64,000 nucleotides of DNA from Naegleria gruberi (taxonomy: Eukaryota). The stretch is taken from NCBI GenBank assembly GCA_000004985.1, contig GG738860.1; one strand, given 5' to 3'. The translations under genes were made by a program, and so were the position numbers. The notes beneath the pieces are model-generated. The model saw only the letters and a program-made list of their open reading frames with translations, searched no databases and was not told where the DNA came from. This document shows positions 3,210-59,940 of the stretch, piece by piece. How positions within the stretch are numbered: the first letter of the stretch is position 1; every line of letters begins with the position of its first letter.

Positions 3210-6200
3210 TTATTTAAAGGTTTGAGATAGTAATGAACTTGAAAGATGGGAAAGTAATTCTTGTAAGTTTCTTTTCATGAATTCGATATCATTTTCTAAT
3301 TCTGTAGAGTATTCTTTCTTTTTACGTAATATATTCTGTAGAGAAGATTTCAAGCTAGTTCCATTTTCAATTGACTTGGTTAATGAATTGATTATTCTCA
3401 CTTTTGAAAGTGATGGTTGTAAAAATTCCTGCAACTTTTCTCCATCCTCACAAATGGCAAGTACTGAATGGTTGAAATCTTCGTCCTCTATTGTTGGGAT
3501 TGAATCGAATATATCATCTAAGGAATCCAATGAAGAGAGTTGAAAGATTGTTTCACTTGGTTTTACAAGTTTTGTTGAATCTTCCACTTGCAAAATCTTT
3601 TGGATTTCCAAGATGATGTTTTCATTGGTCTGGGCTAGCTCTTTGATTTTGTTGGTGTTTGTAATTTCCTCATCCAATGCTGAAGCTAAATAATATGAAA
3701 TATCTGTCTTTTCCTTCAGTTGAAGCATGTAAACTTCTAGCTCACCAATAAGACTTTCATTATCTTCCTTCACCTCCATCAAATCACATGAAAGTGTATC
3801 GAAAAGACTGCGTATATCCATGTATTCCAGTGAGCAAATCCTCAACTTTTCTTTCAGATCATCAATGATGGCCTTAGATTTTAAAACTTCCTCTCTTTCT
3901 CTATTGTAATATGCCTCCATTTGTTTATAGTTGTCCTCGTACGTTTCACAGACAGTGTGAAGAGAATCAAACTTCATTTTTAAACTGGAGAGCTCTGAAT
4001 CTTTGATTGATACCTGTGCATTAAGAGTTAAAACTTTATCACTCAATTCCTTCAACTCTTTCTGTTTAGATTCTTCTTGACCTTTTTGTTTACTGTAACT
4101 TTGCGAAAGTTGAGCGTACAATTCTCCTCTCAAAACTTCTTTTTCTCCACAAATCTTAAAAATATTAGTTACACAGCTATTCCAAAAAACTTACCTGTTC
4201 TAAAAAGTCAAGAACTGACTTGGATGTTCGTTTTAACTGCAAGAAAATGTCTTCTACGAACCCTGATGAGCTTCCTTGAGGAGGATCAACTTGGAATTTT
4301 TTAAGTTCATTACTCATTTCCAAGACAATACTATCCATGCCATTTTTAAGGTTTGATATCAAGGTTTTCAAGCTCAATAGTTCCTCTAACTGTTTGAGAT
4401 TTTCTGATTCGACTTGAGAAAGTTGCTCTGTAACTGTTGTGAAACCTGTTTGAATTCTATTCTTTTCATCAATGGCCGTTTCTTTCTCCCATCTCTCTTG
4501 ACTAAGTTTTAATTCTGCGCTGCTTAGCTTCTTTTCCAACCCCCTTATTTCATTATTCTTAGTATTCATTTCATGTTGGAGTTTATCTTTTGTTTCTTCT
4601 AGCTTTTCTATTCTCGATTGAAGAAATGCTTCGTTGTTATGTTGATTTTCCTTATTCGATAGAGTTTGAATTTGCTTGTTGAGAGAGCTAATCTGTTGCA
4701 TCATTTCTAATTTTTCAGTGTCCTTTGATTTAGTTTCTAGTTTCTCTTTCAAGTCTGCATTCTTGACCTCCAAGCTAATTACTTGTAACCTTGATTTTTC
4801 CAATTCCAACTTGAGATATTCATTTTCTTTTAGTCTCTGATTGTTGTTCTTTGAATCTATTTGCAGTTTATAGGTAGCATCCAGTATATTCTTAAGATTT
4901 TCCAACATTCTTTCACTGTAATTTTTACCAAGCACTGACAATATATCCTTAACAACAGCAGAGGTATTTGACAAATGCTGTTTCAAATGATTGCTCTTCT
5001 TGCTACACAACCCCATTTTCTTTTCACATTTAGAAAGTTTTTCACCAAGCAACGATATGGTTTGGTCCATAGAGAAATAGAAGTCTTGACTCGTTGACTC
5101 TAATTCTTCAAAACTGTCCGGATTGTAATTCTTTGCCTCTTGCTCTATTTCTTTATCGAACTGATCAAAATCCAAGTCATCGTGCATCTCTAGGTTTAAA
5201 GCTTCCTCTAACATCTTACTTGCTTCATCTTCCTTATCTTGTAGGGAATAAATCTTATCCAGTGATTTTGTAAAGGAGCCATCTTCTGTTTCGTTAGTTG
5301 AGTTGTGTACAAAAATTTTCTGTAAGGAAGTTCGCACGTTTTTTTCATTTTCTGATTGTATTTGCGGATTGTTATTTGAGAATGTTTCATATTTCTTCAT
5401 TAGAATAGTTAGAATAAAAGTTAGTTCCTGCTTTTGCTTGTTCCATTCCTTAATTTGCAAGTTGAGTAAAAGCAGAGAGTGATTAATCTCAGTCATATCA
5501 CCACTATAATACACGAGGGAGTTGTAAATTTCTTTACTCTTTCCTAGAAGTGTTGTGAAGGCTGTATCACTCCTATTGTTTACAAGATTCATATAGCCTA
5601 CACATAGAGCTACGATAGCCTCCTTAGATTCTTCTGTGTTTCTTTCCAATTCTTTTGCTATTGTTGTCAAATGCTGACTCCTTTCTTTAAGTATTATTGC
5701 CTCCTTCTTGACATTCAATTCCAAATCCTTAATACTGTTGATCAATTGATCTTTTGAGCTTAAATTATTCGATGCTTTTCTAGAATAAATACAAACAATT
5801 GACTCGCTACTTACTTGAGAAAAATAGACTGTTGTTACAGCAACAAATTGAAGATAAAATCTGATCTGAAGGGAGAAGCTTTGTAATAATAATTGGTTCA
5901 AGTAATATTTTCCCTTTCAGATATTCTCCCCACAAATATACATCTTTAGATTTTGACGTAGCAACAGAATATTCAGATCCACAATAAACACTATCAATTA
6001 TTTGAGATCTGAAAACGTCCAAGTGAACTGGGTTAGTGCAATCAATCGAGTCTTGTTGGCATATATTTGATGGTTTCCCAAATCCATACACCAATCCATC
6101 CTCTACTAAGATTAGTATAATCATTGTGAAATAAATACTTACCAGTCAACACAAGAGAAAAATGAGATCCACAAGAAGAATTCTCAATCTTCTTTTTCAT

Positions 6201-7135
6201 TAGTTTGGTCACTGGAGAAGCATAATATCTATCGATTTGATCACCTGTACCTAGTTGTCCATAATTATTTCGTCCAAATGAAAAAACTCTTCCATCATCC
6301 GTGCAGCAGACTGTATGTTCATCGCCCACGGATACATGTTTGATGGTAAACTTTGAAAGTGTTTGAATGAAATATGGTTTTTCAGAGTAGCTCACTGTTT
6401 CACTTGTATCCTCATTGCTTTTTTGTGAATTGTCCACAATATTTGAATAATGGTCATGTCCCAAACATCCATAAAAGTTAAATCCCCAAGAAAAACATTT
6501 TCCGTCATCTGTTAGAACTACACCATGTCTTTTACCCAAAATAATATCCTTCACAACTATGTCTTGTGTGATTTTACCCTCACTGAAATAAAAGTGATCC
6601 AAGTGATGAAGTTTGAATTGAGATTCGAATGATTTCTTTACCTCTTTAGCTACCACTTTATCACCATTCGATTCATCATGAATTATAATTTGTCTGAATA
6701 AATTTAAACCATCCTCGGCAGTGAGTTTTAAAACTTTTCCATCTCCACTTAGCAATATTATGGCCGAATCTCCATTTTCCTCAATACTTGAAATATCAGC
6801 CTTTTTAATGTAATATGAATCAAGTTGAGACAAGCCTTTGATGACTTCATAGCTCAAATCAGACTTGAAAACCATACCATCCTCCGTTATTATTATTCCA
6901 AAATCTTCATCTCTTTCAGTTATACTAGATATCGAATTATTTTGTAGTATTTGATTATTATTCGAAACAACTTCCGAGCACCAAACCCTTTCGATGTTGG
7001 CATTCAATTCTGCAAAGTGTTACCACGTTACTCCGAAGAATGTCTGCAAAGAAACTTACTATACCAATTTCTCTCTAAAATAGCATTGTTTTGTATTGAA
7101 TGTTGAGATGACAGATTAGTTTGGTTGTTGATCAT
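3210..7135 (-). CDS. Large protein of about 1253 aa with N-terminal RCC1-like repeats and a long C-terminal coiled coil. There are five exons: 7135-7060, 7009-6143, 6105-5815, 5774-4195 and 4154-3210.
   Basis: RCC1 repeat signatures are present: GCLGHDHYSNIV, NNYGQLGTGD and GSHFSLVLT..DGLVYGFGKP. All four introns are GTAAGT...AG with lengths 50, 37, 40 and 40. Exon phases were worked out by hand. The apparent stop after ...FFSSK is the GTAAGTAG donor of intron 3. Total coding length is 3759 nt, which is divisible by 3. Confidence 0.6.
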
Positions 7136-7186: not shown

Positions 7187-9280
7187 TTATACAACAATTT
7201 TGATTGCCTCTTTTAATAAGAGTGAAATTAGCCTACTATTTGATTCTCCTGTTGACTTGAATTGTTCCAATAGACTTTCGTCCAAAGTGACTGATTTCAA
7301 ATCCACCGTTTGTAAGAAAATGTGAAGAGAGAGTAATAGAGGAGGATTATTATCAAAGAAAGCCTCTGATAAACATCTCAAACTTGATAGAGGAGATAGA
7401 TCAAATATAAAATTTGACCCACATGACAACTCTATCAAATTAAAATCCATAATGCATGTTAGATCCGTTATGTAATTGTCGTTCATTCTTAGAGATTTTA
7501 GTAATTTCTTGAAATTAGCATTTTCTAAAGGTTGAATCATTTCATCCGTGAGACAATTACCTGAGATATCTAGCTCTTCCAAGCAGTTCAAGTGGCAAAG
7601 GGATTCTATATTTACATCGATTTGGTTATAACTCAAATTTAGGTAAACTATAGAGTTATAAACAGAAGTTGGCATTCTTAGGGATTTCAATAAATTAAAT
7701 GATAAATTTACAACCTCCACATGAGGTGGAAGATATTGGAGATTTGTGATTCTATTTCTAGATAAATAGATTTCTTTCAAATCCGCCAGTTTGGATATTG
7801 GATAGATGCTAGACAAGTGACTACCTTGAATTGTTAATTTTTGGAGTGATTTACACTTGTCTAAACCATAGAGTGTAGTAATTGGTTGAGCATTTTCTGT
7901 AGATTCTTCTTCCTTGCTTGAAATGTATTCCAAGGAAGAAATTTGAGAGATATCTTGAGATTCGGCCATTCCAATTTGTTCTTGAACAATTTTATCCAAT
8001 AAATCATCCTTGATAACTCTATCTGAAACAGGTATTTGATGAGGCTCTGTTGCTGGAGATGGATATTCGTACGTAATATGATTATAGCTTGAAGTAATTT
8101 CACTGAAGTATGGATCAATATTGGAAGGATCAGTTTCAAGTTGAATTCTCTTTCTATTATAACTCATTTCAAAAGATTTGTGGATGCTTGGTTGGGCATA
8201 TATTGGCATAAACCTTTCTTTTGGAGAGCCTCTTTCCTCGTATGTTATAGAGCTATCCTCTGCTAATTCCTTTGATTTCAAATCGTCAATTATTTCACCC
8301 AAGTCTGGAGTTGGTTTTTCCTCAACCACTGGTTCTTTTTTAGAACTTTTAACTATTCTGGAAGGAGTTTTCTTTGGCTCTGCTTTTTCTTTTGTCTTTG
8401 GGGTTTTTGTAACTTGAGAAGTTTTTGGTGTTTGAGTTTTTGGAGTTTTTGGAGTTTTTTGTTTTGAATTCTTAGTAGGAGTTACAATAAGATGAGATAT
8501 GTCAACTTCAGCACCTTCTTGACTCATTCTCGATAACACAAGAGTCTTTTTGATTTGATCCAAGTATCTAGCTAAAATCTTTTGCTTATTATCGTAAGCA
8601 CGAATGTTATATACAACTTTGAGATAATGTCTCAATTCAGCCAAAGTCCACGAATCTGGATCATCAATCTCAAAGGCTCGTTCTCTCTTTCCTTGTGACT
8701 TTTTTGATGGTGTGTAACCATTGGAAAACACTTGTTCAGGAGTTTTCAAAACACCTTTTTTTGGTGTTAACAGTACTGGAGCTATCGTACTATCAGAATT
8801 CTCAGTAGCAGATTCTTGAACCTGAGATTGTTCAACAAACGAATCCAAAATTCTATTCATGACAGCTTTTCTATTACCCTTTATAGACAATCCTCTTCTT
8901 TTGGCTTCTTTTTGTATTACGGAAATGTCCAGTTTTGAAACAACCTCCTTGTTAGACCAATCTATGTCATCACGATCAAATTCTTCATCATCCAAATATT
9001 CCTCATCATCCTCAAATTCGTTATCACTCGATTTTTGTTGATCATTTTCTCCATCCTCATCTTGAACAATAGGATCATCGGAAGGTTCTTCATCTCTTTT
9101 GACTTTTTTACTTGTTCTTTCATCCGAATCTTCATTGTTTTTTAACAAATCCTCATCTTCCTCTCCGTCAGATAATGTAGATTTGCTCTCCAAAGCTGCT
9201 GATTCTGCGTCTCTCTTGGAGGGTGTTGTTTTCTTCTTTTGTTTGCTTGCTGATGATTGCCGCTTCTTTTTCGTTGGCAT
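7187..9280 (-). CDS. 697-aa protein with a K/E/D-rich N-terminus, a SAP-like motif, TPKT repeats and C-terminal leucine-rich repeats.
   Basis: A single ORF from ATG (MPTKKKRQ...). The motif KEAKRRGLSIKGNRKAVMNRIL resembles a SAP DNA-binding helix. LRRs follow, for example LNLSYNQIDVNIESLCHLNCLEELDISGNCLTD. Confidence 0.5.
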   Translation of the reverse strand: MPTKKKRQSSASKQKKKTTPSKRDAESAALESKSTLSDGEEDEDLLKNNEDSDERTSKKVKRDEEPSDDPIVQDEDGENDQQKSSDNEFEDDEEYLDDEEFDRDDIDWSNKEVVSKLDISVIQKEAKRRGLSIKGNRKAVMNRILDSFVEQSQVQESATENSDSTIAPVLLTPKKGVLKTPEQVFSNGYTPSKKSQGKRERAFEIDDPDSWTLAELRHYLKVVYNIRAYDNKQKILARYLDQIKKTLVLSRMSQEGAEVDISHLIVTPTKNSKQKTPKTPKTQTPKTSQVTKTPKTKEKAEPKKTPSRIVKSSKKEPVVEEKPTPDLGEIIDDLKSKELAEDSSITYEERGSPKERFMPIYAQPSIHKSFEMSYNRKRIQLETDPSNIDPYFSEITSSYNHITYEYPSPATEPHQIPVSDRVIKDDLLDKIVQEQIGMAESQDISQISSLEYISSKEEESTENAQPITTLYGLDKCKSLQKLTIQGSHLSSIYPISKLADLKEIYLSRNRITNLQYLPPHVEVVNLSFNLLKSLRMPTSVYNSIVYLNLSYNQIDVNIESLCHLNCLEELDISGNCLTDEMIQPLENANFKKLLKSLRMNDNYITDLTCIMDFNLIELSCGSNFIFDLSPLSSLRCLSEAFFDNNPPLLLSLHIFLQTVDLKSVTLDESLLEQFKSTGESNSRLISLLLKEAIKIVV

Positions 9281-34592: not shown

Positions 34593-34681
34593 GGGCGGTT
34601 AGCTCAGCGGTAGAGCACCGGATTGCAAAGTTAATTGCAGCAGACATCCGATGGTCACGTGTTCGATCCACGTACCACCCT
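34593..34681 (+). tRNA. tRNA-Cys (GCA) with a roughly 16-nt intron 3' of the anticodon.
   Basis: Acceptor stem GGGCGGT paired with ACCACCC, with one mismatch. D-arm is GCTC-AGCGGTAGA-GAGC. Anticodon arm is CCGGA-TTGCAAA, interrupted before its 3' half (ATCCG...). T-arm is ACGTG-TTCGATC-CACGT with discriminator T. Confidence 0.75.
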
Positions 34682-54810: not shown

Positions 54811-55234
54811 ATGACTGAAGTTGATTTATCAAACCAACCAATTCCTGAAGTTGATATTGCTATGGAAGAACTTGCCCAACACAAGGGTGAAAATGATTTA
54901 CCAATCTGGATCGGAGTCAATGGTAAGTTTCATCATCACAAAAACTAACCACAAATTTCATTATCTAATTTTAATTTAATATTTTGTGATTTTAGGTTTG
55001 GTCTTCCAAGTTAACGAAGAAAAGAGACACATGTATCAACCAGGAACTGGATATAGTATTTTTGCTGGAACTGATGCTACTAGAGCTCTTGCCAAGTCAA
55101 GTGTCAATGCTGCTGATCTTGAACCATATGGAAGTTTGGAAGGTTTGACTGAGAAGGAAATGAATACACTCAATCAGTGGATTAGTTTTTACAAGAAGAG
55201 ATATGTCATTGTTGGTAAAATAAAGAAGGATTAA
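54811..55234 (+). CDS. Cytochrome b5-like heme/steroid-binding protein of the MAPR/PGRMC/Dap1 family. Exons are 54811-54922 and 54996-55234.
   Basis: ELAQHKGENDLPIWIGVNG, then LVFQVNEEKRHMYQPGTGYSIFAGTDATRALAK...LEGLTEKEMNTLNQWISFYKKRYVIVGKI. The intron is GTAAGT...TTTAG in phase 1. Confidence 0.7.
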
Positions 55235-57084
55235 AATCTGATGGAATCTTTAATAACCAGTTGACCTTTTTCTAAATATTCTTTAGTATCATCAATGTAG
55301 AAAGTAAGTATTTTTGGTAGGTTGTTAATCTCAATACGTGAATTTTCGTCTAGTTTTAATTTCGAAAGAATGAATTCTCTAAGCTGTGGACAATCAATCA
55401 CACAATTAAGGTGGACACTGGACTGTGAGATGAAAACAAATTTCAAAGCAGGATGTGGTTTGGTTATGAAAATTTTGGAACCTGCTTTCCCATCTGAAAG
55501 AGAAAAGTAATTTAACTGTGGTAGTATGGAGAGGTCGAAATGAACCTGACAAAGTGCTAAACTTAAGGAAGTCAACTTTTCGAATACTGGCACACTATTC
55601 AATTCCATAGAGAAGTAGAATGGTTGGGATGATCTAAAACTCAAATTAGATAATGTTTCAATATTCATATCCGATTTCCTAATCTCATGACTAAAGGCTG
55701 TTGTAAACCTGTTCATCTTAGGTTCGCCGTTCACAAAGCATTCATCATATGATATTGATTTGATATCATATTTTGTACAATCAATGATCATCTCCATTAT
55801 TGGTCTCCAACATTTAATTCTAATGTCTTTACAGTTGATTTTCATGATATAGTCCCATGCTGCTCTTTTCAATTTTCCATCATTCAAAGTAAGAACGACT
55901 TGTTTGATGGTATGAATATGCTCTAAACAAGCAGCATTGGTCTCAACTAACTCAATCTCGTCCACACTGTCTATGTGTATTTTAACTGAGGAAGGTTTTG
56001 GAGGTGGTACTAATTCTTTAACATGTTCTACCCTTACTATTCCATTCGGTACTCTTGCCATTCGGAATGATTCCAATCTGTCGATATCCACATGCACTTC
56101 TTCAATATTATCAAAACCAAGCTCCTCAATAGAATTCCACATATTCCTTTCAATCTTAACACATTGTAAACAACAAAATCTTGCTTTTACAACTCCAGCT
56201 ACAGGAAGGCATTCCAAGAGGGTTGTATCTATATTTTCTATATTCATTTGTTCAATATTGAGCTTGTTATTCCTATAGGTCAATGATTTAACAGATTTCA
56301 AGCTTAAGCTTTTCAGGTTTGGCAAAATTAAATCTGTCATTTCTAAATTTACGCATTCCAATTCCAAACCAGCCAAAACGTCAGATCTAAAAGTATTATT
56401 AATTGATATGGAATCACAATTCCAGGAAATAGAATAAATATGAGTAAATAGTTCAATAGGGATCATATTAGTTGTAGACAAAAATGAAAAGAATTTGAAA
56501 ATTTCCGAATTTCCTCTTATTGATTCATAATTGACGCAGTTAGTGAGCTCAAAGGTTTTAAAGTTCTTATCTTTAAACATTATCAAATCTGTTAGAGAAG
56601 AAAGAGAAAGATTCAAATCAGTAATATTCTCATTATCTAAAACTAGAGAAGCAATGGGTGCCAAATTATCTGAATATATTGAAAGACTGTTTAGCTTGTC
56701 AAATTTTAGACTTCTATTAGAAAGCTCATCGTTTTTAAAATCGTAATCCATCCAAACTAACTTTTCAATATTTTTGAAATCGTTCAAAATTCTTGTTAGC
56801 CAAGACTTTTCTTGACCATTTTCCACATAACTTGTTGGAACTTTTACCATCGTCAATTTCTTAACAACCTGACTTCCACCCATCACTACATTCAACAATT
56901 CCATCATTTCATCATAAGTTTGTGAAAATATTTCCTCATCAAGAATAGTACCAACATTTCGATGGTAAATAGAATCTGATAAATAATCCCATCTCAGATC
57001 AACAAAACATGTTTTCCACAATTCGTAATTTTCCTCTCTTATCACTCTTCTAAATGTTGAACAGGTGTGTAGGAGTGGTAACAT
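55231..57084 (-). CDS. Hypothetical 617-aa protein with an F-box-like N-terminus and LRR-like repeats.
   Basis: A single ORF, MLPLLHTCSTFRRVIREENYELWKTCF..., with many LxxLxL repeats. Its 3' end overlaps the MAPR stop codon by 4 nt. Confidence 0.45.
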   Translation of the reverse strand: MLPLLHTCSTFRRVIREENYELWKTCFVDLRWDYLSDSIYHRNVGTILDEEIFSQTYDEMMELLNVVMGGSQVVKKLTMVKVPTSYVENGQEKSWLTRILNDFKNIEKLVWMDYDFKNDELSNRSLKFDKLNSLSIYSDNLAPIASLVLDNENITDLNLSLSSLTDLIMFKDKNFKTFELTNCVNYESIRGNSEIFKFFSFLSTTNMIPIELFTHIYSISWNCDSISINNTFRSDVLAGLELECVNLEMTDLILPNLKSLSLKSVKSLTYRNNKLNIEQMNIENIDTTLLECLPVAGVVKARFCCLQCVKIERNMWNSIEELGFDNIEEVHVDIDRLESFRMARVPNGIVRVEHVKELVPPPKPSSVKIHIDSVDEIELVETNAACLEHIHTIKQVVLTLNDGKLKRAAWDYIMKINCKDIRIKCWRPIMEMIIDCTKYDIKSISYDECFVNGEPKMNRFTTAFSHEIRKSDMNIETLSNLSFRSSQPFYFSMELNSVPVFEKLTSLSLALCQVHFDLSILPQLNYFSLSDGKAGSKIFITKPHPALKFVFISQSSVHLNCVIDCPQLREFILSKLKLDENSRIEINNLPKILTFYIDDTKEYLEKGQLVIKDSIRF

Positions 57085-57246
57085 GTATTTTGCAATTTGT
57101 TCCCAAAGATTTGTGTCATCGAATAGTTTACCTGGAGGGTAAGTCCAAAGTCAATGGTGGTCAATGGGTATGTTGGAGGTTTCGACTTAGTTTGGATCTG
57201 CCAACATCAGACGGTTCCTTCAACAACCAAAGAGAATTCGAACAAT

Positions 57247-57321
57247 CAATGGCTGAGCGGGCCACCAATGGCTGGGCGGGCCACCAACAACATTTCGCCG
57301 CACCAACAACATTTGGCCGCC
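57247..57321. repeat. GC-rich block of internally duplicated 20-mers containing CCAAT, directly upstream of the transposase ORF. It may be a subterminal repeat/TIR of a Harbinger-like element or a promoter.
   Basis: CAATGGCTGAGCGGGCCAC / CAATGGCTGGGCGGGCCAC / CAACAACATTTCGCCGCAC / CAACAACATTTGGCCGCC. A partial direct and inverted match lies at 59518-59605. Confidence 0.5.
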
Positions 57322-57376
57322 TAAATTGCTACAGGTGTAGAGGTGGTAGCAGGGTCATTTGTTTAAATTCAAAAAA

Positions 57377-59482
57377 ATGGAAGACACTGATATTCAACGC
57401 TTTTCTGATGAATACTCTCGCAACAAACTTAAACTTCTTCGGGATAAAATTGTTCAGAAATTATTATTAAAGCAAGAATGGAATATGGTATTCGAAGAAC
57501 TTCCAGTGTTGACCAAAAAAAAGAAAACCAGAAAGCAAGCTAAAGATATTCGCACTATTGATCACATCAAAGAGGTACTCCTAAAAAGATTAGGGTATGT
57601 GCCTGTGTATATGTTTTTGAATTTGATGGCAAGTATTTGTGGAACTCCAGAGGGCCCCTATAGAAAATCTGAACTGTATTTAATTATTCTATACATGCTA
57701 GTTAAAAACAAGTCAGCTGATGAGTTGGATTCTTTAGAAATCATTCCATCAACATCCATAAGAAGAGTTGCTGATCAGATTTGGGATGATAATCGAGATG
57801 AACTTAATGTCAAAGTTGACCAATTATTGGCCAAAATGTTTTCCTCACACATTCTCAGAAGTGTAACAGCCAAATTGGAGAATGATAAGGATTTTTTGTT
57901 TGCAACCATGTTCCTTGATGGTCATGACACAAGAATTGAATATAATAACCTGGCCACCTATTCTAGATTTGATTATTGGTCTTTTAAATTCAAAAATTCT
58001 GGTTTAAGAACCCAGGTATTAATGGATGTTAATGAATTTACCTTAGCTGTATCCAAATCAGAAGCATGTAAGGCCAATACAGACATGAAAATGTTTACAA
58101 TTATGGACATACATAATAATGTCGATATGACAAATCATGATGTTGTTTTTTTGGATGGTGGTTACTTTTTAGGAATGAACGATTATGTTGAGAGTTTACA
58201 AGAAAAAGGAGTAGAGTTTGGACTTGACAATTTCCGTACACCTATTAGAAAATCAAGAAATATCCCTTTTGACGACTCAGAGGCTGCTTATAATGAGAAA
58301 TTTGGTGCCTTTCGAGGAACCATAGAGACTCTGTTTTCATTTTTGGCTGAGAAATTTGAATATTTTTCAAACAAAAATCATGCCTCTTGTGTTGCTGAAA
58401 TGGAGCAAAAGTGGAATTTACAGTTCAAAGTGTGTTTGTTATTGGTTAATGTTTTAAAGTTTTGTAAGAAGTTTAATGTTGAGACACAAACCAAGCACAG
58501 ATTGTGGATAAACAAAGAATTTGATTTTGAGTTCAATACTGACAAAAAGTTAATTCCAACACCGGTATTGCAAGAGCAATTACAATATTCCAGAGACTCT
58601 CTTAAAAAACAACAAGATTATTTGGATAGAGTGTTAGAGATGACAGAAGAAGAATTAGAAGAAGAACTTGAGCGTACTTTTAGTCTTTCTGATTTTCCAC
58701 AATTTAACCCCAGCCAAGATATTACAATATCCAAACCAAAATCAAATCCTCAATCAGAAATTCCACCTAGATCTCAAGTAAGATCAGAAACATCACAAAG
58801 ATCTCAATCAAGATTAGAAACACCACCAAGATCTCAATCAAATCCTCAATCAGAAATTCCATCAAGTCCTCAATCAAGAACAGAAATTCCACCAACATCT
58901 CAATCAAGATCAGAAACACCATCAACATCTCGATCAAGCCCTCAATCAGAAACACCACCAAGATCTCAATCAAGATCAGAAACATCACAAAGATCTCAAT
59001 CAAGATTAGAAATTCCACCAACATCTCAATCAAACCCTCAATCAGAAATTCCACCAAAATCTCAATCAAGATCAAAAACACCACCAAAATCTCAATCAAA
59101 ATCAAAAACATCACCAAGATCTCAATCAAGTCCTCAATCAAGATCTGAAACACCACCAAAATCTCAATCAAATCCTCAATCAGAAATTCCACCAAAATCT
59201 CAATCAAAATCAAAAACACCACCAAGATCTCAATCAAGATCAGAAACATCACCAATATCTCAATCAAGTCCTCAATCAGAAACACCACCAAGATCTCAAT
59301 CAAGATTAGAAATTCCACTAAGTCCTCAATCAAAATCCAAACGAAATCATCCAACAAAAAGGAAAGGATATTACTCACCGAATGATGAAGACGCAAAAAG
59401 AGTCACACTTTCAAAAGAATACCAAAAGGGTGTATCAGGTAACAAAAGAAGTAGAAAACCGCCACCCACTTTCGATGCTTAA
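57377..59482 (+). mobile_element. PIF/Harbinger-type DDE (DDE_4/Tnp4-like) transposase ORF, intact over 701 aa, fused to a C-terminal SQS/PP tandem-repeat domain.
   Basis: DDE_4 blocks are present: FLDGHDTRIEY (first D), VVFLDGGYFLG (second D) and NEKFGAFRGTIETLFSFLAEKFEYFS (catalytic E), followed by CLLLVNVLKFC. No internal stops. Flanked by the GC-rich repeat blocks at 57247-57321 and 59518-59605. Confidence 0.65.
58741..59340 (+). repeat. Tandem repeat with a 30-nt period, about 20 copies, encoding SQS(R/N/K)(S/P)(E/Q)(T/S)(E/I)PP(R/K/T) units inside the transposase ORF.
   Basis: Repeated TCTCAATCAAGATCAGAAACACCACCAAGA-type units. The antisense ORF 58767-59396 is an artefact of this repeat. 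Confidence 0.8.
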
Positions 59483-59517
59483 TGGTTTGGTTTGACTAGT
59501 ATTGGCTTTGTTTTGTT

Positions 59518-59605
59518 GGAGCGGCCAATTAATGTTGGCCCGGGCAAATAGGTTTTGGCGTGGCGGGAAACCATTGGCGTAGCGGGAAACTGTTGGTGTG
59601 GTTGG
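59518..59605. repeat. GC-rich block downstream of the transposase ORF. It shares CCATTGGCG/GCGGG motifs with 57247-57321 in both direct and inverted orientation.
   Basis: GGAGCGGCCAATTAATGTTGGCCCGGGC...GGCGTGGCGGGAAACCATTGGCGTAGCGGGAAACTGTTGGTGTGG. The reverse complement of its start resembles CCAACAACATTTGGCCGCC at 57302-57321. Confidence 0.45.
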
Positions 59606-59940
59606 CTTTTATTTGCCCCACCAGCAACAATTTACAACTACAACAACCAAAAACAGTACCAGAAACCACCTACCACCACCAACACACACCATTTTGGAGT
59701 TACCCTCCTGACGGAAGAAAATAGGAAAAGATGTATGTGAGAATTTCACGAGGGAGGTGATCTAGTTGTTGAGACATTTTTTTTTAATCTATTATTTGGA
59801 AGATTCAACTTGGCATTGTAAAGCTCAACCATTACAAAAAAGTGAGAAGTTGAAATTCGAACAAAATCTGTAAAACACCAAAAAATAGAAATCATCACTT
59901 AGTTGTTATTAAATCCTTAATAAAAACTCATCAAAAAAAA

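What the first reader, a model, noticed from the sequence alone, without database searches (positions are those of the whole stretch)
57230..59640. Intact Harbinger/PIF-like transposase carrying a 200-aa SR-like SQS/PP repeat tail, bracketed by GC-rich CCAAT-repeat blocks
The ORF 57377-59482 has the three DDE_4 blocks in the right order and spacing: DGHD, DGGY and the FG..ETLF motif. It also has the C-terminal LLVNVL helix of HARBI1/PIF transposases, and no stop codons, so it is either a live transposase or a domesticated one. The 3' third, 58741-59340, is a perfect-period 30-nt tandem array encoding about 20 SQSRSETPPR-like units, which is not a feature of known Harbinger transposases. Both flanks (57247-57321 and 59518-59605) are islands of about 65% GC in a roughly 33% GC genome. 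They are built from duplicated 20-mers containing CCAATGG/CCATTGG and GCGGGC, partly in direct and partly in inverted orientation. This is what subterminal repeats of PIF/Harbinger ends look like, but it could equally be an NF-Y-type promoter. No Myb/SANT partner ORF is evident.
Basis: partly seen in the sequence, partly recalled or inferred. Interest (0 to 1): 0.75.

Follow-up and report, generated by a model that had tools for sequence, protein, structure and literature searches.

The report
Complete single-gene Harbinger-like transposon in Naegleria
This is a complete, apparently intact "cut-and-paste" jumping gene of the PIF/Harbinger type in the amoeba Naegleria gruberi, a known kind of element in an unusual one-gene form whose enzyme carries a long repetitive serine/proline-rich tail.

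Summary
The window is Naegleria gruberi. The ORF is the annotated "predicted protein" NAEGRDRAFT_79233. The observation largely holds, with corrections. The tail array is not perfect-period 30 nt. It is a diverged mosaic of 30-nt and 36-nt units with a 96-nt super-period. The flanking blocks are built from 19-mers and are 63% and 57% GC.

They are 15-nt terminal inverted repeats (57135-57149 and 59693-59707, 14/15 matching) flanked by a 3-bp duplication, CTG/CTG. The two GC-rich blocks are four-unit 19-bp arrays. Each starts exactly 112 nt from its terminus, and they are in mirror orientation. They are therefore subterminal repeats, not just a promoter.

The transposase core folds confidently (pLDDT 90) as a DDE transposase and keeps D181/D260/E317. 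It belongs to a clade of at least 507 representatives. Most sampled members match Pfam DDE_Tnp_4, and many carry a C-terminal chromodomain where Naegleria has low-complexity tails.

N. fowleri has at least 4 non-syntenic copies, more than 99% identical, with 3-bp duplications. The element contains no Myb-like second gene.

Verdict: a complete, probably autonomous single-ORF Harbinger-like transposon, a variant of a known kind and not a domesticated gene. Copy number in N. gruberi and current activity were not testable here.

The parts
57132..57134 (.). Left copy of the 3-bp target-site duplication (CTG)
   Evidence: CTG lies immediately outside the left TIR and is identical to 59708-59710. A TIR plus matching TSD appeared once in the real flanks and 0 times in 40 shuffles.
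57135..57149 (+). Left terminal inverted repeat, GAGGGTAAGTCCAAA
   Evidence: the repeat finder pair I11 is 15/16 complementary to 59693-59708. There is no other close match in the 64-kb window.
57135..57376 (+). Left (5') non-coding end of the element, presumably also holding the transposase promoter
   Evidence: It aligns colinearly with the reverse complement of the right end: score 25 against -57 +/- 13 for shuffles.
57247..57322 (+). Left subterminal array of 4 x 19 bp (CAATGGCTGAGCGGGCCAC x2, CAACAACATTTCGCCGCAC x2), a candidate transposase-binding site
   Evidence: TRF finds period 19 with 95% matches. The register is printed. The array starts 112 nt from the terminus and is 62.7% GC.
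57377..59482 (+). Transposase gene, 701 aa plus stop (NAEGRDRAFT_79233)
   Evidence: dN/dS is 0.09 against the 66%-identical relative L005.
57557..57835 (+). N-terminal all-helical region (about aa 61-153), an inferred helix-turn-helix DNA-binding domain
   Evidence: The AF2 model shows helices 61-72, 74-88, 97-110, 125-138 and 140-153 at pLDDT above 85. The DNA-binding role is inferred from Harbinger transposase architecture and was not tested.
57902..58471 (+). DDE (RNase H-like) catalytic core, aa 176-365. The catalytic codons are D181 (57917-57919), D260 (58154-58156) and E317 (58325-58327).
58562..58681 (+). Conserved long helices after the core (aa 396-435), which precede the variable C-terminal module in the whole clade
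   Evidence: AF2 predicts helices 396-421 and 424-435. The tails or chromodomains of relatives begin after this column.
58739..59337 (+). In-frame tandem array of about 20 units of 10 or 12 aa (SQSRSETPPR / SQS[NS]PQSE[IT]PP[KR]). Composition is S 30%, P 18%, Q 13%, R 10%, and the pI is 11.3.
   Evidence: It is the only + frame without stops across the array, and the longest exact internal repeat is 41 nt. The tail has no detectable homologue.
59327..59479 (+). Basic C-terminal end (51 aa, pI 10.3) with NLS-like clusters KRNHPTKRK and NKRSRKPPP and a YYSP motif shared with N. fowleri copies
   Evidence: N. fowleri L004 ends ...PEYYYSPQQKKQRKSTKQ. Basic C-terminal clusters recur in chromodomain-less relatives. 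NLS function is inferred.
59520..59595 (-). Right subterminal array of 4 x 19 bp, read on the minus strand (CAACAGTTTCCCGCTACGC, CAATGGTTTCCCGCCACGC, CAAAACCTATTTGCCCGGG, CCAACATTAATTGGCCGCT)
   Evidence: On the reverse complement it starts 112 nt from the right terminus, the same offset as the left array. TRF finds period 19.
59693..59707 (-). Right terminal inverted repeat (reverse complement GAGGGTAACTCCAAA)
59708..59710 (.). Right copy of the 3-bp target-site duplication (CTG)

Best explanation
Window 57135-59707 is a complete 2,573-bp class II (cut-and-paste) DNA transposon of the PIF/Harbinger (DDE_Tnp_4) kind. It is inserted in the intergenic region between two N. gruberi genes.

Structure (shown). 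Each side has a 3-bp target-site duplication (CTG), a 15-bp TIR, and about 110 nt further in an array of four 19-bp GC-rich repeats. The two arrays are in mirror orientation. The single gene encodes a 701-aa transposase.

Mechanism (inferred from the family). The N-terminal helical domain binds the TIRs and the 19-bp subterminal repeats. The DDE core (D181, D260, E317) cuts both ends and joins them into a staggered 3-bp target.

The missing partner (inferred). Canonical Harbingers need a separate Myb-like protein to bring the transposase into the nucleus and to the subterminal repeats. This lineage has no such gene. Its transposase instead carries its own C-terminal extension ending in basic, NLS-like clusters.

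The tail. In N. gruberi the linker between the core and that basic end has expanded, by slippage or unequal exchange, into a roughly 200-aa, very basic, phosphorylatable S/P/Q/R repeat array. This is most likely a disordered spacer. Sister lineages carry a chromodomain in the same position, so it may also act as an interaction module.

Status. The copy looks intact and autonomous. Whether it is active now is unknown.
For: 1. TIRs and TSD.
- The TIR pair 57134-57149 / 59693-59708 is 15/16 complementary and is unique in the window.
- CTG flanks both ends.
- A TIR plus TSD appears once in the real flanks and 0 times in 40 shuffles.

2. Mirror-image ends.
- The two ends align colinearly in inverted orientation: score 25 against -57 +/- 13 for shuffles.
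- Both 19-bp arrays start exactly 112 nt from their terminus.

3. The protein is a DDE transposase of the DDE_Tnp_4 type.
- The direct Pfam DDE_Tnp_4 hit covers profile positions 17-158 of 158, at E 2e-4.
- An exhaustive profile search finds 507 representatives.
- 31 of 43 sampled full-length relatives hit DDE_Tnp_4, best E 1.6e-12.
- The AF2 model has pLDDT 90.2 and the beta1-beta2-beta3-alpha-beta4 order of an RNase H fold.
- The top Foldseek hits are Tn5 transposase.

4. The gene is intact.
- 20 of 21 clade-wide conserved residues are kept, including D181, D260 and E317.
- dN/dS is 0.09 against L005.

5. The family is mobile.
- N. fowleri has at least 4 copies at unrelated loci, 99.4-99.7% identical.
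- The two copies with both ends have perfect 3-bp TSDs, CAA and CCA.
- The N. gruberi and N. fowleri flanks share no synteny.

6. The tail.
- All unit spacings are multiples of 3.
- The coding frame is the only stop-free + frame.
- The YYSP and basic end downstream of the array is shared with N. fowleri, so the array is read through in frame.
- Relatives without a chromodomain have low-complexity tails ending in KKRK-type clusters.
Against: - Only one protein of this family is annotated in N. gruberi. I could not search the N. gruberi genome for further or non-autonomous copies, so mobility in this species is not shown.
- The direct Pfam score is below the gathering threshold.
- The TSD is CTG, and CAA and CCA in N. 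fowleri. It is not the TWA typical of PIF/Harbinger.
- There is no Myb-like ORF2, which canonical members need for transposition.
- DNA binding by the N-terminal region, binding of the 19-bp repeats and NLS function of the tail are all inferences.
- TIRs could not be recognised in more distant relatives from metagenomes.
Confidence: 0.82

Rival explanations
1. Domesticated transposase. A single-copy host gene derived from a Harbinger-like element has acquired a new SR-like tail. In this reading the upstream CCAAT/GC-rich block is an NF-Y-type promoter and the downstream block is a 3' regulatory element.
For: - N. gruberi has only one annotated copy.
- The ORF is intact and under long-term purifying selection, with dN/dS 0.09.
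- The tail is unusual.
- The left array lies 55-130 nt upstream of the ATG and contains CCAAT in forward orientation.
Against: - Near-perfect TIRs and a perfect 3-bp TSD bracket the gene.
- The 'promoter' array is mirrored beyond the stop codon at the identical 112-nt distance from the terminus. A promoter does not explain that.
- The catalytic triad is intact.
- The closest genomic relatives are multicopy, more than 99% identical and non-syntenic.
- Known domesticated Harbinger genes (HARBI1, ALP1) have lost their termini (own knowledge).
- The left array could be both a promoter and a transposase-binding site, so the promoter reading is not exclusive.
Confidence: 0.1
2. A recently dead or immobile relic. 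The element is structurally complete but can no longer transpose, for example because the expanded tail or a missing trans-acting partner disables it. It would then simply be awaiting decay.
For: - The copy number appears to be one.
- There is no Myb-like partner.
- One TIR mismatch exists, and the two subterminal arrays have diverged from each other.
- Close relatives carry frameshifts: L005 has a 7-bp duplication and the N. fowleri copies have a shared -1 shift.
Against: - The 2.1-kb ORF has no stop or frameshift.
- 20 of 21 conserved residues, including the DDE triad, are retained.
- The TSD is intact.
- The array has kept its frame through about 20 units.
- The whole clade lacks an ORF2, yet it has clearly amplified in N. 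fowleri.
Confidence: 0.07
3. The repeat tail is an assembly artefact or is not translated, meaning the real protein ends before or within the array.
For: Tandem repeats are error-prone in assemblies. Low-complexity A/C-rich sequence has few stop codons, and an antisense ORF of 209 aa also runs through it.
Against: - The units are 15-27% diverged and the longest exact repeat is only 41 nt, so reads place uniquely.
- All indels are multiples of 3.
- The other two + frames contain 5 and 2 stops.
- The frame continues into a basic YYSP-containing end that is conserved with N. fowleri.
Confidence: 0.02

Closest known systems
PIF/Harbinger superfamily of DNA transposons (e.g. zebrafish Harbinger3_DR; plant PIF, Ping and Pong)
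   Same: - DDE_Tnp_4-type transposase with a D..D..E triad and a (C)xxL(H/V)N helix after the E.
- Short TIRs, a 3-bp target-site duplication and repeated subterminal motifs.
- Element size of 2-5 kb.
   Different: - No second, Myb/SANT-like ORF.
- TSDs are CTG, CAA and CCA instead of TWA.
- The transposase carries a long C-terminal extension with its own NLS-like clusters.
- Similarity to the Pfam model is marginal for this copy (21.4 bits).
Naegleria fowleri 'DDE Tnp4 domain-containing proteins' FDP41_001399, _010660, _009710, _005106 (loci L001-L004)
   Same: - Same clade: 49% amino-acid identity over the core.
- Single-gene element with TIRs starting GA(A/G)G and a 3-bp TSD.
- Low-complexity S/T/P/Q-rich tail ending in YYSP plus a basic cluster.
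   Different: - Multicopy and more than 99% identical.
- Different TIR sequence (GAAGCTCGGTTCAG...).
- No GC-rich 19-bp arrays were noted.
- A shorter, partly acidic tail.
- The ORF is split by a 1-nt shift in an A-run in every copy.
Chromodomain-bearing relatives in Mucoromycota (Cunninghamella blakesleeana CAO3648681.1, Entomortierella KAF8965169.1) and in many metagenome contigs
   Same: The same transposase core at 25-34% identity, with the same conserved helices before the C-terminal module.
   Different: They have an HP1-like chromodomain at the C-terminus where N. gruberi has the SQS/PP array. 14 of 43 sampled members have one by Pfam, and the profile matches HP1 and Swi6 in the PDB.
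Domesticated Harbinger transposases HARBI1 (vertebrates) and ALP1/ALP2 (Arabidopsis)
   Same: A DDE_Tnp_4-derived protein that is apparently single-copy in its genome.
   Different: Those genes have no TIRs or TSD and sit at conserved syntenic positions, and ALP1 has lost catalytic residues (own knowledge; PMC4671723 and PMC7282668 appeared but were not read). Here the termini, the TSD and the DDE triad are intact and there is no synteny.
ISL2EU and Spy elements (the other branches of the proposed 'PHIS' group) and bacterial IS5-family insertion sequences
   Same: Distantly related DDE transposases of the IS4/IS5 type. The closest solved fold by Foldseek is Tn5 transposase.
   Different: ISL2EU makes 2-bp TSDs and Spy makes none (own knowledge), whereas 3 bp is seen in 3 of 3 complete copies here. 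The bacterial IS are shorter and lack the eukaryotic tail.

Membership tests
PIF/Harbinger DNA transposons | Transposase with a DDE_Tnp_4 (IS5-like) RNase H-fold catalytic domain and an intact D-D-E triad | tested here: met
   - The direct Pfam hit is E 2e-4 at 21.4 bits, below the 24.8-bit gathering score.
- 31 of 43 clade members hit DDE_Tnp_4, best E 1.6e-12.
- D181, D260 and E317 are conserved.
PIF/Harbinger DNA transposons | Short terminal inverted repeats at the element boundaries | tested here: met
   15-nt TIRs with 14/15 identical at 57135-57149 and 59693-59707. The ends are colinear in inverted orientation.
PIF/Harbinger DNA transposons | 3-bp target-site duplication | tested here: met
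   CTG/CTG here. CAA/CAA and CCA/CCA in the two N. fowleri copies that have both ends.
PIF/Harbinger DNA transposons | Target preference TWA (TAA/TTA) | tested here: not met
   The three observed TSDs are CTG, CAA and CCA. The sample is only three insertions.
PIF/Harbinger DNA transposons | Second ORF encoding a Myb/SANT-like DNA-binding partner | tested here: not met
   - The 2,573-bp element holds only the transposase ORF, an antisense low-complexity ORF inside the repeat and a 61-aa ORF in the right end.
- The N. fowleri elements also have one gene.
- A partner encoded elsewhere in the genome could not be searched for.
PIF/Harbinger DNA transposons | Multiple copies or insertion polymorphism in the host genome (evidence of mobility) | not testable with these tools
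   The N. gruberi genome is not in any DNA collection offered. Only one annotated protein exists and the window holds no second copy. The feature is met for the sister family in N. fowleri.
Domesticated Harbinger-derived host genes (HARBI1 / ALP1 type) | Loss of TIRs and TSD, so the gene is no longer embedded in an element | tested here: not met
   TIRs, the TSD and symmetric subterminal arrays are all present.
Domesticated Harbinger-derived host genes (HARBI1 / ALP1 type) | Orthologues at a conserved syntenic position in related species | tested here: not met
   tblastx of 21 kb of N. gruberi flanks against the flanks of the four N. fowleri copies gave no hits. The N. fowleri copies lie next to unrelated genes.
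SR proteins / RS domains | RRM domain plus a C-terminal domain of consecutive RS/SR dipeptides | tested here: not met
   There is no RRM or any other Pfam domain besides the DDE. The array has 25 RS/SR dipeptides in 195 aa, but they are interspersed in SQSRSETPPR units and are not runs. 'SR-like' describes composition only.
ISL2EU / Spy (other DDE_Tnp_4-related eukaryotic groups) | 2-bp TSD (ISL2EU) or no TSD (Spy) | tested here: not met
   3-bp TSDs in 3 of 3 complete copies.

The most novel reading that the evidence does not exclude
The clade may be an undescribed single-protein branch of PIF/Harbinger in which the C-terminus is a swappable targeting or import module that replaces the Myb-like partner. 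That module would be an HP1-type chromodomain in fungal and many environmental members. In N. gruberi it would be a long, basic, phosphorylatable SQS/PP repeat array that tethers the transposase to chromatin, RNA-processing or import machinery and so steers nuclear entry or target choice. The array would then be a functional adaptation and not neutral slippage.
Probability: 0.12. Interest if true: 0.6.

Novelty: new variant of a known kind. Interest (0 to 1): 0.35.

Why it matters
This gives N. gruberi, a model free-living amoeboflagellate, a fully delimited and apparently intact DNA transposon. The gene is currently annotated only as a "predicted protein". All the parts needed to test activity are now defined: TIRs, TSD, candidate binding repeats and the catalytic residues.

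It also points to a sizeable clade of one-gene Harbinger-like elements with at least 507 representatives. These elements do without the Myb-like partner that canonical Harbingers need, and they carry different C-terminal modules such as chromodomains or repeat tails. That makes the clade a natural system for asking how cut-and-paste transposases get into the nucleus and choose targets. It could also be a source of a compact single-protein transposon tool for Heterolobosea, including the pathogen N. fowleri, where the sister family looks very recently active.

Nothing here overturns current understanding of transposons.

Tried and rejected
- An exact look-up of the translated ORF in the contig index found nothing, although the identical protein P0001 is in the protein collection.
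- AF2 with only 5 sequences gave an unusable model at pLDDT 46. It was replaced by the 43-sequence run.
- A profile search of the PDB with the small alignment hit only poxvirus A21/OPG147 membrane proteins, E about 2e-4 over 40 residues. I treated this as spurious because it covers one beta-hairpin stretch and the proteins are unrelated in function.
- The afdb50 fold library was unavailable, so HARBI1-like AlphaFold models could not be compared.
- A metagenome scan with the single protein found nothing. The scan with the alignment returned only 31-37% relatives.
- An automated hunt for TIR plus 3-bp TSD in those contigs and in AT-rich loci L006 and L008 was inconclusive.
- The conserved ORF downstream of a chromodomain-bearing relative (L006, L007) has no Myb or other significant domain.
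- The tail alone has no detectable homologue, so there is no evidence it was captured from a host gene.
- NCBIfam gave only a non-significant IS982 hit.
- Rfam found no RNA family in the element.
- Programmed -1 frameshifting in the N. fowleri copies was considered, because the shift site is a formal U_UUA_AAA heptamer. The downstream RNA is less structured than shuffles, z +1.59, and one extra A in the A-run would restore the frame. A homopolymer error or a real 1-nt deletion is therefore simpler.
- Literature searches found no description of Naegleria Harbinger elements or of chromodomain-bearing Harbinger transposases in the held library. Repbase and Dfam could not be consulted.
Full report
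**Source and observation.** The window is from Naegleria gruberi. The 701-aa product of ORF 57377-59482 (+) is identical to the annotated "predicted protein" XP_002678726.1 / NAEGRDRAFT_79233 / D2VAM9. The ORF is uninterrupted. It contains, in order, FLDGHD (D181), FLDGGY (D260), FGAFRGTIETLF (R313, E317) and VCLLLVNVL.

The direct Pfam match to DDE_Tnp_4 spans profile positions 17-158 of 158. It is weak, at E 2e-4 and 21.4 bits against a gathering score of 24.8.

**The tail array.** The 3' third of the ORF is a tandem array at 58740-59337, but it is not "perfect-period 30 nt".
- TRF gives 73% matches and 12% indels at period 30. The best score is at period 96, with 78% matches and 6.1 copies.
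- At protein level it is a mosaic of 10-aa SQSRSETPPR units and 12-aa SQS[N/S]PQSE[I/T]PP[K/R] units. All spacings are multiples of three.
- Composition is S 30%, P 18%, Q 13% and R 10%. The pI is 11.3. There are 14 S/T-P sites and 25 interspersed RS/SR dipeptides.
- The longest exact internal repeat is 41 nt, and the coding frame is the only stop-free frame on the + strand. The array is therefore neither an assembly collapse nor an accidental ORF.

**The flanking blocks.** The two blocks are real. They are 62.7% and 56.8% GC in a 33.3% GC window. With one tRNA gene, they are the only islands of at least 55% GC in the 64 kb. They are built from 19-mers.

The element is wider than the finding.
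- A 16-nt inverted pair (57134-57149 and 59693-59708, 15/16 complementary) lies outside both GC blocks.
- If the TIR starts at 57135 (GAGGGTAAGTCCAAA), the three bases outside each end are CTG and CTG. That is a 3-bp target-site duplication.
- The TIR has no other close match in the window.
- A TIR of this quality with a matching 3-bp flank occurs once in the real flanks and never in 40 shuffles.
- The whole left end (57135-57376) aligns colinearly with the reverse complement of the right end (59483-59707). The score is 25, against -57 +/- 13 for shuffles.
- In both ends the four-unit 19-bp array begins exactly 112 nt from the terminus.

Mirror-image arrays at equal distance from TIRs are what transposon subterminal binding sites look like. 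A promoter explains only the left one. The element is therefore 57135-59707, 2,573 bp long, and sits 50 bp upstream of the start codon of the divergent neighbour gene at 55231-57084.

**The protein family.**
- The word-indexed search found only seven relatives, all Naegleria or environmental.
- An exhaustive HMM search with a five-sequence profile found 507 cluster representatives at E <= 1e-3 and 119 at E <= 1e-30.
- Of 43 full-length members sampled, 31 match DDE_Tnp_4 with a best E of 1.6e-12, and 14 have a C-terminal chromodomain.
- The family profile matches HP1 and Swi6 chromodomains in the PDB at its C-terminal positions.
- Named members come from Willaertia magna (Heterolobosea) and from the Mucoromycota fungi Cunninghamella and Entomortierella.

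**The fold.** With the 43-sequence alignment, AlphaFold2 gives a confident model (pLDDT 90.2, pTM 0.83). It has an N-terminal helical region, then strands 178-188, 207-217 and 222-225, a helix, and further elements in the order of an RNase H fold. A long helix follows at 342-365 and two conserved helices at 396-435.
- Foldseek's best solved matches are Tn5 transposase, with probability 0.91-0.97.
- No solved Harbinger structure appeared among the matches, so structure supports the DDE fold and sequence supports the DDE_Tnp_4 type.
- The N. gruberi protein keeps 20 of 21 residues that are at least 90% conserved in the clade, including D181, D260 and E317.
- Its core has evolved under purifying selection relative to a 66%-identical environmental relative. 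dN/dS is 0.09, with dS saturated.

**Mobility of the family.**
- N. fowleri (GCA_008403515.1) has at least four copies next to unrelated genes on four contigs, and a fifth annotated fragment.
- The copies are 99.4-99.7% identical over 1.6-1.8 kb.
- They share a terminus, GAAGCTCG(G)TTC….
- The two copies with both ends have perfect 3-bp duplications, CAA/CAA and CCA/CCA.
- tblastx finds no similarity between the flanks of the N. gruberi copy and those of the N. fowleri copies.

This rules out an old domesticated gene at a conserved position. It also shows that the family makes 3-bp duplications without the TWA preference usual for PIF/Harbinger. Only one member is annotated in N. gruberi itself, and the window holds no second copy. 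The genome could not be searched at the DNA level, so copy number and present activity in this species remain open.

**No partner gene, and the meaning of the tail.** The element contains no room or ORF for a Myb/SANT-like protein. The N. fowleri elements are also single-gene.

From established work on zebrafish Harbinger3_DR and rice Ping/Pong (my own knowledge, not checked here), the Myb-like protein binds subterminal repeats and brings the transposase into the nucleus. In this clade the region after the conserved helices (aa about 435 onward) comes in two forms.
- One form is an HP1-like chromodomain.
- The other is a low-complexity, often acidic or serine-rich stretch ending in a basic KKRK-type cluster.

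N. gruberi follows the second pattern. Its last 51 residues have pI 10.3, contain KRNHPTKRK and NKRSRKPPP, and share a YYSP motif with the N. fowleri C-terminus. What differs is that the intervening linker has expanded into the roughly 200-aa basic SQS/PP array. The tail has no detectable homologue, so there is no sign of capture from a host gene.

My reading is that the transposase carries its own nuclear-import signal, and possibly a tethering signal, at the C-terminus. The array would then be a slippage-expanded disordered spacer. A functional role, such as phospho-regulation or tethering analogous to the chromodomain, is possible but unsupported.

**Comparison with known systems.** The element works like a PIF/Harbinger transposon. 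It meets three of that superfamily's defining features: the DDE_Tnp_4 transposase, short TIRs and a 3-bp TSD. It fails two usual ones, the Myb-like ORF2 and TWA targets.
- It is not like HARBI1 or ALP1, which lack termini and are syntenic.
- It does not fit ISL2EU, which makes a 2-bp TSD, or Spy, which makes none.
- "SR-like" describes the tail's composition only. There is no RRM and there are no RS runs.

I file it as a variant of a known kind. Searches of the held literature found no description of Naegleria Harbinger elements or of chromodomain-bearing Harbinger transposases. Repbase and Dfam were not available, so prior curation cannot be excluded.

**Verdict.** This is a complete and probably autonomous single-ORF Harbinger-like transposon with a lineage-specific repeat tail (confidence about 0.8).
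- Domestication: about 0.1.
- Immobile relic: about 0.07.
- Artefactual tail: about 0.02.

Interest is moderate to low at 0.35. It is a clean, testable element and points to a possibly undescribed one-protein Harbinger clade with swappable C-terminal modules, but it is not a new kind of system.

Noticed in passing
window 34593-34681 (+): An intron-containing tRNA gene. It matches Rfam RF00005 at 50.4 bits, E 6e-10, with about 19 nt inserted after the anticodon loop, and by eye it is tRNA-Cys(GCA). ARAGORN reported no tRNA in the window. It is the only GC-rich island in the 64 kb apart from the two transposon ends.
   Followed up: partly
L001-L004 (N. fowleri), e.g. L003 7011-7017: In all four N. 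fowleri copies the transposase ORF is broken at the same place. The continuation is in the -1 frame and the junction is a formal slippery heptamer, U_UUA_AAA, in the correct register. The downstream RNA is less structured than shuffles, z +1.59, and one extra A in the A-run would restore the frame. A homopolymer error in the assembly or a shared 1-nt deletion is more likely than programmed frameshifting.
   Followed up: partly
Clade relatives P0009, P0014, P0020, P0033 and others; loci L006, L007: Many relatives of this transposase end in an HP1-like chromodomain: 14 of 43 by Pfam and about 18 by eye. They include proteins from the Mucoromycota fungi Cunninghamella and Entomortierella. P0020 also has an N-terminal retroviral-type aspartyl protease domain. 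The held literature had no description of chromodomain-bearing Harbinger-type transposases.
   Followed up: partly
L002 (N. fowleri) 7632-8115 vs 5753-6236: One N. fowleri copy has as its right end a 484-bp inverted duplicate of the left end, and its left terminus is the variant normally found on the right. It is still bordered by a perfect CAA duplication. This is a rearranged element with long inverted ends that apparently still transposed.
   Followed up: no
L005 1313-1326 (ENA metagenome contig, 66% identical relative): A 7-bp tandem duplication, GTTGAAG|GTTGAAG, frameshifts the transposase just after the catalytic core. The tail downstream is acidic (S/D/E-rich), unlike the basic N. gruberi array. 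Its upstream 200 nt are AT-rich with no GC-rich 19-bp array, but the contig ends before the expected terminus.
   Followed up: no
window 58767-59396 (-): A 209-aa antisense ORF (LIEILV… repeats) runs through the tandem array. It is a by-product of the low-complexity repeat and not a gene. That frame still contains one stop within the array.
   Followed up: yes
PDB profile searches with alignments A2 and A3, profile positions about 183-229: The beta-hairpin region of the transposase core gave weak sequence hits (E 2e-4 to 1e-3) to poxvirus entry-fusion complex proteins A21 and OPG147. These are probably chance hits and were not pursued.
   Followed up: no
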